DNA from: Callorhinchus milii
Lineage: Eukaryota
Reading direction: 5' to 3'
Length of the DNA: 64,000 nt
Assembly: GCF_018977255.1 (NCBI RefSeq)
Contig: NW_024704749.1
Span: 13,516,001-13,580,000 of the forward strand
Shown: in pieces, positions 12,001-27,000 of the stretch
How the letters are laid out: each line of letters begins with the position of its first letter
Position numbering within the stretch: position 1 is the first letter of the stretch
Program-made: the position numbers

Positions 12001-15000
12001 CCGGGGGCTCCTCCGGGGTACAATGTCCCAGTGGAATTACTCATAATAATAATTTGGTTTGAAGAGGTTTTGGAGGTGGAAAGGAATTGTGGATTTGATG
12101 GATTTGAACTACAGGATCCAGAATGCCCGGCGGCAGAGGAACAGCTGTCCGGGTTTAAATACTCAGGATGTGGTTTGGAGGGAGTGAGTACATTGCAATG
12201 TGAAAGGAAAACCATCTGAGTTCTCTTCCTCCTTCAGCCCAGAAACATGTCCGAGCAGTGAGCTGAGCTGTGAGCAGTGGCTGTGGCTATGGCTGTGATC
12301 TGAGCTGTGGCTGTGATCTGAGCTGTGGCTGTGATCTGAGCTGTGGCTGTGATCTGAGCTGTGGCTGTGATCTGAGCTGTGGCTGTGATCTGTGGCTGTG
12401 ATCTGTGGCTGGGGCTGGGGCAGGGGCTGGGGCAGGGGCTGGGGCTGGGGCAGGGGCTGGGGCAGGGGCTGGGGCAGGGGCTGGGGCTGGGGCAGGGGCA
12501 GGGGCAGGGGCTGTGACCAGGCAGACCAGGCAGACCAGGCAAGGGGGGCTGTAGAGCAGAAGAGGAGAACAGGGACACACAGAGAGCCTTTGTGGCAGAA
12601 AAGTTATTGATTTCTCAATGAGAGACTTACTTGGGAATTCCTGATGGCCAGAACTCTGTGACACAGAAAAGGGTTTCCTCCCTCCCTCCCTCTCCCTCCC
12701 TTCCTCCTCCCTCCCTCCTCTCTCCCCCTCCTTTCCTTATTTCTTCCCTTATCTCTTCCTCCCACCCCATCATCCCCTCCCTCAAAACTATAGCAGAAAT
12801 GGACATGGGACTGTCACTTCTTGCTGTCTTAACCTTCACCTGGATTTATTCTCACCGGACTCTGGGGATGACAAAGGAAGAAAAGGGAAAATACAGGTAG
12901 GATTTTGCTAACTCTCTCCCCACCCCCCACCCCCTCACCCCCAATTCTGGTGTTGGGTGGATGGGCCTGCTGCAAAGCTCCATTGCAAGTGCTGTCTGTA
13001 CCTGACAACTGTGTAGGTGTGTTCGTAAACTCTGGGACACTCTCCCTCTAACCCTCTGTCTTGCCCCCTCCTTCCCCATTTTCAGATCGCACCTGAAGAC
13101 CTTCCTCTTAGACCTTGCCTACAGTTACCACCCCCCCGCGGCTCAGTGTCCTGCTCCATCACTCCATCACTGTCAAGGCCCCCGGGGCACAATCCTGTAT
13201 GAGGGGCGCCATATAAATGTTGTTGTTGTCATGTGCAGTCAGCGTTAATTCCAGGATACATTACTCCCCCTCTCCCTCCTTCCAACTGGGCTTTAGTTTC
13301 TGACTCACACTATATCCTGGCAAGTGCTGTGAGACACATCAATGTATTGTTATTACACCGGAATCTCTAATTCAGAACAACAAATTACATTTGTAAAACT
13401 TCTTTCACAGGCTCACGACCCAAGGCGCTGGACAGCCAGGGATCGAGCTCATGTCATTTTAATATCTTACCATTGGAGAATGTTTCTCTTATAGTAGAAC
13501 TGCACTCCTTCCCCTCCCTCCCCCTCTCCAAGAAATGGTGACCATTTTTACAGTTTTGTGGGTATACGCACTGCGAGGATCACAAATCTCCCATTTCTGC
13601 TTTTACAGGGACCAGATTCTTGAAATGTTTGACCACGCCTATGGCAGCTACATGGTAAGCTGGTGTTTCTCTTCCATTTGCTTTGGGTCCAAGTGTTTTG
13701 TAATAATTGCCTCCGTCCGTTCACAAGTCACATTGTTGAGACATCGTTCAAATAGCGAGGAGCAAAGATCTAAATACCTGCCCGCACTAATCTGGGATTA
13801 GATGATTTATTTCCTTTATAAAACACTGGACTCTTGCCAACCCGCACCTTATGCTTTCTGAGATGTGGTAAACCGAATGTTTTCCTCCAGAGAGCGCGAG
13901 CGAGCGAGCGCGCATTCCATTCCGACAATCTATCCCTGGAATTTCCCATCCGATGCAGTTGGGAGGCACGGGATCTCAGTTGGGTTTGGAGACCCTGGAC
14001 GGAGGATGGCGATGGAGATGGGTTTCCGCTTGTGTCAGACACGGGGCTGGGCAAAACATGTTTGCTCTTGATAAACGTGGGCGTGACTGTGGTTCACTGC
14101 TAATGATTTGACTCCTGTATATGTCTGCACCCCCTCCCCCCCCCTCTCTCTCTCTCTCTCTCTTTCTCTCTCCCCCCCACCCCTGTTAGAAACACGCGTA
14201 CCCGGCAGACGAACTGATGCCGCTCAGCTGTCGCGGGCGAGTACGCGGGATGGAGCCGAGCCGCGGGGACATCGACGACACTCTGGGAAGGTAGGAGCCC
14301 GAGCGCCTCACGGTCTCCAGTCGCCCGCACGGAAATGTGGCAGGAATGAATTTTGTTTGGGGAAACCAGCTGCATGGCGAGTATGTTCCTCTCTGCACTG
14401 GGCCCCGTGTTTACACTGCAGTCGCCTCTGGCTTAGTAAACCTTTCACATGAGGCCCTCGTTTTGTGTTGGATTTTTTTTAAGTGCCAAAAAAGATCCTG
14501 TTTTTTACTGTGCGTGTTCTTCCCATGTGAAAGGCGCTTTATACGTGTAATTATGTTGTTGTTTTTGCTTTTGGTCCAAATCCTTGACTGTCCAGCGCCT
14601 TGGGATGTCCTCCTGACATGAAAGGCGCTATGTATTGTTAGTGGTGGTGGGTTCTGCTCTCAATGATTTTTAAAATAAGCAAGTGTAGTAACTGTGCATT
14701 TGTAGAGCAAGAGAGAGAGCCTAAACTCAAATGATGTCCTACTTTGAGACTGAGATAGGTCGATGTGTGTGTGGGAGGGGAAGCTATTTATCAACACTGG
14801 TACTATACTGCTTATCAGAAAATAAATGTGGCAACGGAAAGTTCGCTAGCACAATGGACCTTAAGCCGTTTAAGTATTAACTTGTATTCTTTGATGTGGC
14901 TGTCTCCATTTGGAAAAAAAAACTTGGCAGAACAATGTGTTTTTATTCTGTAGTGCAGGTCCATTTTATTTCCCCCAAAAAAACCTCTTGGCCTTATTTT

Positions 15001-24000: not shown

Positions 24001-27000
24001 TTAATGGTATCACTTGGAGTCTCTCCACTTGTCTAGATGTGTAAGACTAAACCTTTGGGTACAGGATCTGCCCTGGTGCCCCATCCTAACATATTCCACC
24101 ATTCCTGCCTTGTCGCCTAGTTGACTTGTATCTTCTTTGCAGGTGAAGGGGAGCCTGGCTAAAGCTGTTCCATTCAATGCCTGCCTGGACATAGCCAACC
24201 CAGCTGACATCAGGGGGAGAATTGTGCTGGCCCAGCGTGGGGACTGCATGTTCGCGGTCAAAGCCAGGAATTTACAGAAGGCTGGAGTGACCGGCGCTAT
24301 CATTATTGGTGGGTGTCTGTCACCGTGTGATGCAGAGAGAGAGGATGTGGCCACTGTAAGCTTGCATTGCTTGGAATCATAATAGCAGTTTAATGTATGG
24401 CGACTGTGAATACTGAAACGTCTCTGAGCGCTTCCCAGGGAATCGCTGTTAATTGCATCCCAAAGTTAATAACAACAACGACAACAAATTACATTTGTAC
24501 AGCAACACACACTGGGACCAACCCAGCATATCTCCGAGAAGGGGATGGGTAAAACCAGACGGGAGGGGTGGGGGTTTGGGGAAATGGATTGACCTGGAGT
24601 TTCATCCTTCCTTTCCAACCCTACAGATAATTTGGAAGAGAGTAGCAGCGATGCCTCCTTGCCTGTGTTTCAGATGGCTGGTGATGGGGAAAACACCAGT
24701 GAAATCGAAATCCCCCTGGTTTTCCTCTTCACCAAGGAAGGCAATGTCTTGCTCAAAGCTTTGAGGGAGCAGCAGAACGTGGATGTTCTACTGGTGGATA
24801 AATCCAAGCAGCTCGGACAAGGTCTGCAACACTCCATTCCACCAGCGGTTTCCGCTGGTCTCTCATCTCATCTCATCTGGGCTTGTGGTTTATACCGGGT
24901 CCTTCAAGTGGGTTAGCGTCTTGGAGCACTGAACAATGGCGGAGTCTGAAGCTGAGCTGGGGAGAAAAGGGAGGTGAACGTAGGCGCGGTCATAGAGGAA
25001 AGTCTTCAGGTGAAGTCTCAAGCCGGACAAAGACAGAAGAGGGGGAGGGGATTGAGGCACGGAGTTTCCAGAGGGTCGGGGCAAAATAGAGGCTGAAGAG
25101 GTTGGGAGGTGCTAGGCCATGAAGTGATTTGTAGGGGAGTGTGTGGATCTTGAAATCGTTCCATTCTGTCTGTATTGCTTTGAGTGGCTGTCGTTTTGGG
25201 TTTGTCTGTTGGGGTAGGAATATGTTTGGATGTTTGATCTCTCTTGTTCTGTTGGGATGTTGACTCCCATTATTATTTATTATTTTCCCCCTCCCTCTTC
25301 CCCTCCCTCAGAAGGTAAGAAAAAGGAAAGATCGATTGGGGAATTGAAGATCCACATCCATATTGACTCCAGTGAGGAACAAATGGCTCAGATGGAATTG
25401 GACATCAACACGGAGCGCGGTGGAAGCCATGGAGCAGGGCAGTCAGGGGAGGCTTTCCCGGAGGAGACCGTTCCCGGGGGGGAGACTTTCCCGGGGGGAG
25501 GGAGGGATGATGAGGAAGCTAGCAGGACCGATCCCCAGGGGAGTAGCGAGGGAGATCCCGACTCCGTGCCCCTCGATTGGAGGGAAGAGATGGAAGCGTT
25601 TGAGGAATTAAACTTGGACGAACTCTAAATCACTGGCTTCCAAAGACACCTCCTCCTGTCCTTAACCATGCAAAGTGTAGTGACTGTGCAGCTCGCCCTC
25701 AAAACGCACAGTCGCTACTCTTTACAGAATATTCCCGTGAAGCACTTTGAGGACTTTTCCTCCACACATGAAAGGCGCTGTACCAAATAGAAGGATTATT
25801 TTATCATCATTATTGCGTGTGGAGTCAGTTTGCAGGTACTCTGGGAAGCGCAGTCTGCTTCTGTTGATCGCGCATGGATTGATCCATCGTTCTCTGCCAT
25901 CTCTCTGAACAAGAAAATCTAACTTAACTGAAGCGATTCAGGTTGCAAGCTCTGGTTTGGGGAAGAAACTATGTTTTTTTTGCACTGCCTTTGGTGGATG
26001 TAAGCGCTTATTTAAAAAGGAAGCATTGGGTTCTGGAGGTGATGGGTTTCCATATATTTTAAATATAGGAAGATTACATTGTGGTTCGAGTTTAACCAGT
26101 GATAGGAAAGCAATTTGGATGTGGCAAATAGTTTATAGCACACATGCTCTATCCTACGAAGTGCTTTTGAGACGTCCTCCCGGCGTGAAAGCCGCTGCAT
26201 TAAAACACAAGGATCATTACTATTTTTCTGTCTGGAACTATCCTAGAGTCTCTCCGACTCCCCCGTTAAAGCACATCTTAAGATGTTTCTCTTTCAACCG
26301 TGTTTTTGGTCAACTTTGTCAAAGGGAGGGGAGGGGAAAAATAGAGTTGAATGGCTGAAGTATTACGAATTGTTTTTGTATATACAGGTGTATGTGTGTT
26401 TTAATACAGTAAACTCCTGATAACTCAACAGTCCAAGGGAAAGTAGCTCAGTGACTAGTTATCAGGAGCGGTGAGTTAGACATGTGTATTAATACATAAA
26501 TAATTGCCATCCTGATATTGACAGCATGTTGGCTTAAGTGGTAGTGACACGTTAAGCCAGGGTCGAGTTATCAGACGTTTATTGTATTCCTACAATCCCA
26601 AGCTTTACTGTCTCTCAAAGTTTTGATTCCATATCCTTTGATCTTAGTTTGTAATTTAGTGTTGCTCACAAACTACACAGCCACTACACTTTACAGCAAG
26701 TCCTGTGAAGCACTTTGAGACGTGAGAGGTGCTATATCTTATGTAAATGTTGTTATTTGCTGAGAAAGCCTGACCTGGCATTTTGTACGTTTTTCTATTG
26801 CCATTCTATTCTGGGTTTAAGAAAATTGTGCCATTTATGAATGTTGGCAACATTCCTTGAGCACGAACCAGCTGATCCATCAGTGAATAAGTGACAAGTC
26901 TCACTGATGCTATTAATATCCAGTCACTACACTTGACACTAACTTCCTGTGAAGTCCTTTGAGATGTTTTGACAACGTGATAAAGCGCTGTGCCAAATGC

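What the first reader, a model, noticed from the sequence alone, without database searches (positions are those of the whole stretch)
12799..25628. EDEM3-like gene in an SLC31A2-NELFB neighbourhood: probable ohnolog, a fourth EDEM
Seen: an intact 20-exon gene with EDEM3 architecture and GH47 catalytic motifs ([22 protein letters not shown]), lying between SLC31A2 and NELFB. Known: human EDEM3 is on 1q25, SLC31A2 and NELFB are on 9q32-34, and 1q21-25 and 9q33-34 are paralogous segments from vertebrate genome duplication. Inference: this is a retained duplicate absent from mammals, giving a second PA-domain ERAD mannosidase.
Basis: partly seen in the sequence, partly recalled or inferred. Interest (0 to 1): 0.7.

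Follow-up and report, generated by a model that had tools for sequence, protein, structure and literature searches.

The report
Second, unnamed EDEM3 paralog in elephant shark
The gene is a real, intact ER quality-control mannosidase of the elephant shark that databases call EDEM3, but it belongs to an old sister lineage of the EDEM3 lineage that holds the frog genes and, on limited evidence, the mammalian gene.

Summary
Window 12799-25628 (+) holds a 20-exon gene with 19 GT-AG introns. It reproduces all 887 residues of NCBI's "EDEM3 isoform X1 [Callorhinchus milii]". It lies between a Ctr copper-transporter gene (minus strand) and NELFB.

The ohnolog idea is largely supported. Trees split vertebrate "EDEM3" proteins into two clades, and each holds cartilaginous and bony vertebrates. 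Clade A holds sawfish and frogs. Clade B holds this gene, 10 sharks, lungfish, turtles and ray-finned fishes. One clade of all cartilaginous fishes is rejected (AU p 2e-38). A printed mouse C-terminus and PA-domain sequon match clade A. Clade B shares a chromosome with NELFB in a shark and in turtles. Papers show both a 9q34.3-type and a 1q25-type teleost "edem3" locus.

Not shown:
- that the elephant shark also keeps a clade A copy; weak evidence points against it;
- that mammals lack clade B.

No searched paper names this paralog.

The parts
12799..12896 (+). Exon 1: start codon and a hydrophobic N-terminus, the likely signal peptide
13609..13654 (+). Exon 2: start of the GH47 domain
14190..14290 (+). 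Exon 3: holds Cys62, the first Cys of the catalytic-domain disulfide pair
15474..15513 (+). Exon 4
16176..16288 (+). Exon 5: ETNIR motif at 16266-16280
16731..16884 (+). Exon 6 (GH47)
17293..17427 (+). Exon 7 (GH47)
18026..18131 (+). Exon 8 (GH47)
18367..18464 (+). Exon 9: GIDSYYEY motif at 18384-18407
19039..19164 (+). Exon 10 (GH47)
19467..19550 (+). Exon 11 (GH47)
20187..20270 (+). Exon 12: RPEF motif at 20232-20243
21055..21179 (+). Exon 13: holds Cys421, the second Cys of the catalytic-domain pair
21701..21866 (+). Exon 14: TTEAH motif at 21798-21812, end of GH47, and the clade-B-specific Cys just after the domain
22085..22239 (+). Exon 15: intermediate domain. The first linker Cys is kept and the second is absent
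22835..22997 (+). Exon 16: intermediate domain
23669..23860 (+). Exon 17: intermediate domain
24143..24308 (+). Exon 18: first half of the PA domain, with an N-A-C sequon
24627..24821 (+). Exon 19: second half of the PA domain
25312..25628 (+). Exon 20: acidic tail ending in NLDEL, then the stop codon
3879..8848 (-). Upstream neighbour, head to head: a Ctr-family copper transporter gene.
30414..36612 (+). Downstream neighbour on the same strand: NELFB, 13 coding blocks; exon 1 abuts an N run that was left unfilled

Best explanation
The gene is the elephant-shark member of a second, ancient vertebrate EDEM3 lineage, called clade B or 'EDEM3B' here. It is sister to the lineage that holds the frog and sawfish genes and, by inference, mammalian EDEM3 (clade A). 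The duplication happened after vertebrates split from the invertebrate outgroups and before cartilaginous and bony vertebrates split. Clade B sits in 9q34.3-type surroundings and clade A in 1q25.3-type surroundings, so the pair is most simply a pair of ohnologs from the early vertebrate genome duplications. By inference from mammalian EDEM3, the protein is a soluble ER-luminal alpha-1,2-mannosidase. It would trim Man8B glycans on misfolded glycoproteins to Man7-5, exposing the alpha-1,6 mannose that sends them to ERAD. Shown: an intact gene, a complete catalytic motif set, the Cys pair of the catalytic domain, the intermediate and PA domains, an acidic tail and a C-terminal LDEL. Inferred: enzyme activity, ER residence, a whole-genome-duplication origin, and loss of clade B in mammals.
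For: Gene integrity: 887 of 887 residues and 19 of 19 GT-AG introns. Domains. Two clades appear in a quick tree of 35 rows (A 99, B 99 SH-aLRT). They also appear in a careful tree of 27 rows with 6 outgroups: vertebrates 100/100, A 100/99, B 100/100. Within B the tree repeats the species tree: chimaera with sharks, then lungfish with turtles, then ray-finned fishes. The split is recovered separately from GH47 columns (A 99, B 96) and from intermediate-plus-PA columns (A 99, B 100). The AU test rejects one clade of all Chondrichthyes (lnL 187 lower, p 2.2e-38). Pairwise, sawfish against frogs is 73-74% over about 930 residues (1375-1395 bits). Sawfish against sharks is 65-67% over about 770 residues (1083-1097 bits). 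Link of mammals to clade A: the mouse C-terminus printed in PMC7926307 (23 residues) matches Spea at 21/23, Nanorana at 20/23 and Pristis at 17/23, but Callorhinchus and Heptranchias at only 12/23 (counted by eye). The printed N-G-C sequon has the Gly of clade A, where all 12 clade B rows have Ala. Synteny: the gene is adjacent to NELFB here. EDEM3 and NELFB share a contig length in 4 of 7 informative comparisons: Callorhinchus, Heptranchias, Malaclemys and a sea-turtle cluster. Printed loci: 'edem3-npdc1-pou5f3-fut7a-clica' in fishes, with Npdc1 and Fut7 on human chromosome 9 (PMC5297860); RGL1-GLT25D2-C1orf21-EDEM3-NPL in tilapia (PMC3276181); EDEM3 at 1q25.3; NELFB and FUT7 in the 9q34.3 deletion gene list. 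Function: the catalytic motifs and both catalytic-domain cysteines (Cys62 and Cys421, spacing 359 as in human C82/C441) are invariant in 15 of 15 vertebrate rows. Purified mammalian EDEM3 trims M8B to M7, M6 and M5 (PMC8570694).
Against: No mammal, bird or squamate EDEM3 sequence was in any tree. The link of mammals to clade A rests on 23 printed residues, one sequon and protein length. No genome was shown to hold both clades by sequence. The two teleost loci come from two papers on different species, and I did not tie either locus to a clade. Three of the 7 contig comparisons differ (Acipenser ruthenus, Sphaeramia, Scophthalmus); all three are ray-finned fishes. The group tested was named after the tree had been seen. 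Five of the six outgroups are unnamed representatives. No lamprey or hagfish was sampled, so the timing relative to the genome duplications is not fixed. Activity, localisation and expression are untested. LDEL is not a canonical KDEL-type signal as I recall the pattern.
Confidence: 0.8

Rival explanations
1. It is simply the one EDEM3 orthologue of the elephant shark, as NCBI names it, moved into a 9q-type neighbourhood by a local rearrangement.
For: NCBI names it EDEM3. No second Callorhinchus EDEM3-type protein is among the best 120 or the 4 hits. The architecture is the same as printed for mouse EDEM3.
Against: The sawfish protein groups with frogs and away from sharks and chimaera. One clade of all Chondrichthyes is rejected. 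The link to NELFB recurs in a shark and in turtles. Papers show two differently placed teleost loci.
Confidence: 0.07
2. The two clades are real, but they come from a small-scale duplication in the vertebrate or gnathostome stem and not from whole-genome duplication. The 1q25 and 9q34 placement would then be coincidental or secondary.
For: Only the tree node is dated, between the outgroups and the gnathostome crown.
Against: The two kinds of locus lie in segments I recall as a classic paralogous pair (1q and 9q). Several neighbours on each side fit: NELFB, NPDC1 and FUT7 against RGL1, C1orf21 and NPL.
Confidence: 0.12
3. The split between the clades is an artefact: long-branch attraction of fast-evolving sawfish and frog sequences towards the outgroup.
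For: The first tree had one very long outgroup branch (Ixodes 2.14). Frogs and rays are often fast-evolving.
Against: The sawfish and frog end branches are short (0.06-0.17), and the three share an inner branch of 0.22. The split holds with six outgroups, under the mixture model and in two separate domains. Raw identity agrees with it. Shared characters agree too: T against S before Cys62, G against A in the sequon, and the presence of the second linker Cys.
Confidence: 0.02

Closest known systems
Mammalian EDEM3 (mouse Q2HXL6, 931 aa; human gene at 1q25.3)
   Same: The module order is the same as printed in PMC7926307: GH47, intermediate domain, PA domain and acidic disordered tail with a C-terminal xDEL. 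The catalytic motifs and the catalytic-domain Cys pair are kept. Identity to clade A proteins is 57-60%.
   Different: It falls in a different clade and has different neighbours. It is shorter (887 aa) and ends in LDEL, not KDEL. It lacks the second linker cysteine, which stands 29 residues after the first and matches the spacing of human C528 and C557. The preprint 10.1101/2025.01.29.635535 models that pair as bonded to ERp46. It has an extra Cys right after the GH47 domain, present in all 12 clade B rows and in none of the 3 clade A rows.
EDEM1 and EDEM2 of vertebrates
   Same: They are GH47 ERAD mannosidase homologues.
   Different: Per PMC7926307 they have no PA domain and no retrieval signal of their own. 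I did not place them in a tree here.
Fungal Htm1/Mnl1-type EDEM (PDB 8zpw_A; Chaetomium EDEM:PDI, 29te/9tpa)
   Same: These are the best solved relatives of the GH47 domain (282 and 277 bits). Each has a GH47 domain followed by a C-terminal domain.
   Different: According to the preprint passages they have no PA domain, are disulfide-bonded to a PDI and are retained in the ER through that partner.
ER mannosidase I (MAN1B1, PDB 1fo2, 1fmi, 1x9d)
   Same: GH47 fold and catalytic motifs (about 166 bits).
   Different: It is a much more distant relative. I recall it as a type II membrane protein without intermediate or PA domains.

Membership tests
Glycoside hydrolase family 47 (Pfam PF01532) | Full-length match to the family profile above the curated cut-off | tested here: met
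   P0003 residues 39-477 match profile positions 1-454 of 455 at 398.9 bits against a cut-off of 22.9. Exon by exon, 8 of 10 frames match collinearly.
Glycoside hydrolase family 47 (Pfam PF01532) | Catalytic and Ca-binding motifs (E in ETNIR, D in GIDSYYEY, E in RPEF, T in TTEAH; the residue roles are recalled from work on ER mannosidase I) | tested here: met
   All four are present in the window and invariant in 15 of 15 vertebrate rows, apart from one S for T in Acipenser beside the TEAH core.
EDEM3-type architecture | GH47 followed by an intermediate domain and a PA domain | tested here: met
   PA (PF02225) covers residues 663-758. The intermediate region aligns along its length with clade A and with the outgroup. 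The module order is printed in PMC7926307.
EDEM3-type architecture | Cys pair of the mannosidase domain needed for activity (human C82 and C441) | tested here: met
   Cys62 and Cys421 have the same spacing of 359 and are invariant in 16 of 16 rows.
EDEM3-type architecture | Its own C-terminal KDEL-type ER retrieval signal | tested here: inconclusive
   The protein ends in NLDEL. Both shark clade B rows printed end in KDEL. The turtle, lungfish, gar and zebrafish clade B proteins have no xDEL. Whether LDEL is recognised was not tested.
EDEM3-type architecture | Two linker cysteines 29 residues apart (human C528 and C557 in the preprint's ERp46 model) | tested here: not met
   The first Cys is present in all rows. 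The second is present in 3 of 3 clade A rows and in Ixodes, and absent in 12 of 12 clade B rows.
Orthologue of mammalian EDEM3 (clade A, 1q25.3-type) | Groups with the clade that holds tetrapod EDEM3 of the mammalian kind | tested here: not met
   It falls in clade B with 100/100 support, and the AU test agrees. Caveat: mammals are tied to clade A only through printed fragments.
Orthologue of mammalian EDEM3 (clade A, 1q25.3-type) | 1q25-type neighbours (RGL1, C1orf21, NPL and others) | tested here: not met
   The neighbours in the window are a Ctr gene and NELFB. No 1q25-type gene was seen in the 64 kb.
Ohnolog pair from the early vertebrate genome duplications | The duplication node lies after the invertebrate outgroups and before the gnathostome crown | tested here: met
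   Vertebrates 100/100, and each clade holds Chondrichthyes and Osteichthyes.
Ohnolog pair from the early vertebrate genome duplications | The two copies lie in paralogous chromosome segments | tested here: inconclusive
   Clade B goes with NELFB (window). Printed teleost loci of 9q34.3 type and of 1q25 type exist. The teleost loci were not tied to clades, and the 1q/9q paralogy is recalled.
Ohnolog pair from the early vertebrate genome duplications | Position relative to cyclostomes, and genome-wide support from paralogous segments | not testable with these tools

The most novel reading that the evidence does not exclude
Clade B is a functionally distinct fourth EDEM. It keeps the catalytic machinery but has lost the second ERp46-type linker cysteine and gained a new one. 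In bony vertebrates it has also lost its own retrieval signal, so it would work with a different PDI partner and retention mode. The two ohnologs may also be retained reciprocally among cartilaginous fishes, with rays keeping A and sharks and chimaeras keeping B. In that case the 'EDEM3' of elephant shark and sharks, and at least one gene called 'edem3' in fish models, is not the orthologue of human EDEM3.
Probability: 0.35. Interest if true: 0.65.

Novelty: new member of a known kind. Interest (0 to 1): 0.5.

Why it matters
Textbook accounts of glycoprotein ERAD give vertebrates three EDEMs. A fourth would have several consequences.
- A widespread lineage carrying the same name as EDEM3 means that orthology-based transfer from human EDEM3 to shark, turtle, lungfish and fish genes can hit the wrong paralog. 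This also affects the design and reading of knock-outs in fish models.
- The changed linker cysteines, and the loss of the xDEL end in bony vertebrates, offer a natural contrast for asking how EDEM3-type enzymes choose PDI partners and stay in the ER.
- The locus adds one more retained pair to the 1q/9q paralogous segments.

As genome evolution it is an ordinary kind of event: an ohnolog kept in some lineages and lost in others.

Tried and rejected
- The PA-exon search found only 4 proteins among 13 candidates. That was too few for a family picture, but it gave P0003.
- The search of representatives with the sawfish protein returned 150 unnamed proteins. I did not use the unnamed representatives of 66% identity or more, since they could come from any vertebrate. 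Only five distant ones (57-62% identity, 1025-1156 aa) served as outgroups.
- The Atlas gave taxa only at phylum level for the sawfish protein. It gave nothing usable for the 389-aa ORF: best score 0.80, recognition 1129.
- A first Pfam call failed on a frame slip of mine and was repeated with the stop-to-stop frames.
- I considered and rejected long-branch attraction, a plain orthologue with moved neighbours, and MAN1B1 (another GH47 gene that I recall lies at 9q34.3). The PA domain and the 57-60% identity to EDEM3-type proteins exclude MAN1B1.
- I did not use structure prediction, fold search or complex prediction, because no claim here rests on a fold or on binding.
- I did not search or fold with a spliced translation joined by me. 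Searches of the window's own sequence went exon by exon, and full-length work used NCBI's stored protein P0003.

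
Full report
**What is there.** The window is elephant shark (Callorhinchus milii), not human. [quoted passage not shown] It also returned two UniProt models of the same gene and one zebra-shark protein: 4 hits among 13 candidates. All 887 residues of P0003 are reproduced by 20 exact blocks on the + strand. Each of the 19 junctions has one GT...AG solution.

Exon-wise Pfam scans give GH47 matches in 8 of 10 frames, collinear over profile positions 47-455. They give a PA match in exon 18. On P0003 as a whole, GH47 covers residues 39-477 and PA covers 663-758. 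The motifs [17 protein letters not shown] and TTEAH sit at 16266-16280, 18384-18407, 20232-20243 and 21798-21812.

I searched the window's own coding sequence exon by exon. The step of joining my own exons into one protein for a search or a fold was left out. Full-length work used the stored NCBI protein.

**Neighbours.**
- Upstream on the minus strand lies a Ctr-family copper transporter gene. Pfam Ctr matches two exons, one below the curated cut-off. Its ATG is at 8848 and its stop at 3879.
- It stands head to head with the gene, across about 4 kb of microsatellite-like sequence and N runs that I left as they are. I did not test whether it is SLC31A2 or SLC31A1.
- Downstream on the same strand lies NELFB at 30414-36612. 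Pfam COBRA1 matches two exons. NCBI's Callorhinchus NELFB (P0123) is 100% identical over the exon searched, and 579 of its 582 residues map in 13 blocks. Its exon 1 ends in an N run.

**Two clades of "EDEM3".** A search with P0003 scored 8000 candidates, found 4469 at E <= 1e-50 and listed the best 120. Of these, 34 are unnamed. Nearly all named rows are called EDEM3 or alpha-1,2-mannosidase; the rest carry no functional name.

I built a quick tree from 35 of the 120 rows:
- all named cartilaginous fishes except four isoforms or older models;
- all named non-teleost bony vertebrates;
- a sample of teleosts;
- the tick protein as outgroup.

The other 85 rows were left out: the 34 unnamed rows, the four isoforms and older models, and 47 further named teleost rows. 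The tree has two starred clades.
- Clade A holds sawfish (Pristis, 963 aa) and two frogs (913 and 923 aa).
- Clade B holds Callorhinchus with 10 shark species, sister to lungfish plus three turtles and to ray-finned fishes (bichir relative, sturgeons, paddlefish, gar and teleosts including a Danio protein).

A careful tree of 27 rows with six outgroups (the tick plus five unnamed distant representatives) gives vertebrates 100/100, A 100/99 and B 100/100. The split is also found from GH47 columns alone (A 99, B 96) and from intermediate-plus-PA columns alone (A 99, B 100) in a 20-row set.

Forcing all cartilaginous fishes into one clade costs 187 log-likelihood units (AU p 2.2e-38). I named that group after seeing the tree.

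Raw similarity agrees with the trees.
- Sawfish against frogs is 73-74% over about 930 residues.
- Sawfish against sharks is 65-67% over about 770 residues.
- Callorhinchus against sawfish is 57%.

**Which clade is the mammalian one.** I had no mammalian sequence, so this rests on print.
- PMC7926307 (passages read) gives mouse EDEM3 as 931 aa and prints its last 23 residues. By eye, these match Spea at 21/23, Nanorana at 20/23 and Pristis at 17/23. They match Callorhinchus and Heptranchias at only 12/23.
- The same paper prints an N-G-C sequon in the PA domain. The middle residue is Gly in 3 of 3 clade A rows and in the tick, and Ala in 12 of 12 clade B rows.

This is limited but consistent evidence that mammals carry clade A. 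That mammals lack clade B is recalled knowledge (three EDEMs) and was not tested.

**Synteny.** The homolog tables give the length of the longest contig that holds each protein cluster. I used equal lengths as a proxy for the same chromosome. EDEM3 and NELFB can be compared informatively in 7 cases.

| Species or cluster | EDEM3 contig (bp) | NELFB contig (bp) | Result |
|---|---|---|---|
| Callorhinchus milii | 24,702,275 | 24,702,275 | same |
| Heptranchias perlo | 37,577,816 | 37,577,816 | same |
| Malaclemys terrapin | 27,359,296 | 27,359,296 | same |
| Sea-turtle cluster | 35,259,138 | 35,259,138 | same |
| Acipenser ruthenus | 36,320,016 | 15,640,301 | different |
| Sphaeramia orbicularis | 81,199,652 | 57,338,352 | different |
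| Scophthalmus maximus | 18,467,213 | 25,242,470 | different |

An eighth pair, Polyodon, shows 100000 for both and says nothing.

In print:
- PMC5297860 (passages) gives the fish gene order "edem3-npdc1-pou5f3-fut7a-clica" and places Npdc1 and Fut7 on human chromosome 9.
- PMC3276181 (Table 4 passage) lists RGL1, GLT25D2, C1orf21, EDEM3, NPL, SEC22B and NOTCH2 in that order on a tilapia scaffold.
- EDEM3 is listed at 1q25.3 (PMC11609870, table passage).
- NELFB and FUT7 are in a gene list for the 9q34.3 deletion (PMC10297681, appendix passage).

Teleosts therefore have two differently placed genes, both called EDEM3, one of each type. I did not tie either locus to a clade by sequence. That 1q and 9q are paralogous segments, and that RGL1 and NPL lie at 1q25, is recalled.

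**What stays open for this genome.** I could not search the Callorhinchus genome. The best 120 hold no clade A protein of Callorhinchus or of any of the 10 sharks. The sawfish clade A protein is listed at 1174 bits, just above the last row at 1165. Conversely, none of 6 ray species shows a clade B protein in that list (Pristis, plus the five whose NELFB appears). Shark clade B proteins score 1464-1553 there. This hints at reciprocal retention: rays keep A, and sharks and chimaeras keep B. If so, the elephant shark would have three EDEMs, not four. The first half of the hint is weak because of the list cut-off.

**How it most likely works.** By homology with mammalian EDEM3, the product is a soluble ER-luminal alpha-1,2-mannosidase. 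Purified mammalian EDEM3 converts M8B to M7A/M7C, M6 and M5 (PMC8570694, passages).
- Shown here: a hydrophobic N-terminus; all catalytic motifs; and the Cys pair of the catalytic domain (Cys62 and Cys421, spacing 359 as for human C82 and C441), invariant in all 16 rows.
- Shown here: the intermediate and PA domains, an acidic tail and a C-terminal LDEL.
- Inferred: enzyme activity, ER residence and a role in ERAD.

**Differences from clade A.**
- The preprint 10.1101/2025.01.29.635535 (passages) models human C528 and C557 as bonded to ERp46. Clade A has two cysteines at that spacing of 29 residues. Clade B keeps the first and lacks the second in 12 of 12 rows.
- Clade B has an extra Cys right after the GH47 domain in 12 of 12 rows. 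Clade A has it in 0 of 3.
- The chimaera and the two sharks printed keep an xDEL end (LDEL and KDEL). The turtle, lungfish, gar and zebrafish clade B proteins printed have none.
- The preprint notes that EDEMs without their own signal are held in the ER through their PDI partner. This suggests, but does not show, a changed partner or retention mode in clade B.

**Novelty.**
- The gene itself is annotated.
- I found nothing in the searchable library that recognises two vertebrate EDEM3 lineages. There were 0 papers for EDEM3 with ohnolog. There were 0 papers for edem3l, edem3b, edem3a, EDEM3-like or EDEM4.
- None of the 12 listed titles and abstract openings, or the 12 listed of 21, suggested it.
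- The preprint describes an EDEM family phylogeny with 40 vertebrate species. Its passages do not mention a split within EDEM3.
- Orthology databases could not be consulted.

**Verdict.**
- The finding is a new member of a known kind.
- Interest is moderate, at 0.5.

Noticed in passing
window 52562-53566 (+) and 56503-57486 (+): Two intronless ORFs in tandem (335 and 328 aa, stop to stop), both rhodopsin-family receptors (Pfam 7tm_1, 128 and 130 bits). For the first, the nearest solved receptors are P2Y4, P2Y2 and P2Y1. This looks like a local P2Y-like duplication.
   Followed up: partly
window 37976-39142 (-): A 389-aa open frame just downstream of NELFB on the opposite strand. It has no Pfam match and no usable Atlas hit (best score 0.80). 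It could be a large exon of an unidentified gene or a chance open frame.
   Followed up: partly
P0001 and P0002 (UniProt models of the same gene); window about 17.8-18.0 kb and 24.8-25.1 kb: The two UniProt models of this gene differ from NCBI's model. One replaces exon 7 with other sequence, and both read on past exon 19. They look like mis-spliced automatic models and not real isoforms.
   Followed up: no
and tables (not in the window): None of 6 ray species shows a clade B protein among the best 120 hits. None of 10 shark species, nor Callorhinchus, shows a clade A protein there. This may mean reciprocal loss of the two paralogs within cartilaginous fishes.
   Followed up: partly
P0046, P0018, P0019, P0060 (clade B of turtle, lungfish, gar, zebrafish): These clade B proteins of bony vertebrates lack the C-terminal xDEL that chimaera and shark clade B and all clade A proteins keep. 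Turtle clade B sits on a long branch (0.32-0.47).
   Followed up: partly
window about 10400-12600: A long tract of simple repeats lies between the Ctr gene and the EDEM3-type gene. It has a GC skew of -0.64, translates as runs of S, L, T and H or of P-rich repeats, and is interrupted by two N runs.
   Followed up: no
window, many sites, e.g. 4138-4491 (-), 18133-18339 (-), 20233-20472 (+), 27230-27640 (+), 51179-51539 (-), 56012-56402 (-), 58858-59140 (+): One interspersed repeat family recurs in introns and between genes. It is visible as near-identical peptide strings in the ORF lists and is probably a SINE. A reverse-transcriptase fragment (Pfam RVT_1, 72.8 bits) lies at 62207-62839.
   Followed up: no
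window 29370-30460: A G-rich, TG/GT-type simple repeat tract lies upstream of NELFB exon 1 (GC skew +0.40 at 28-30 kb).
   Followed up: no
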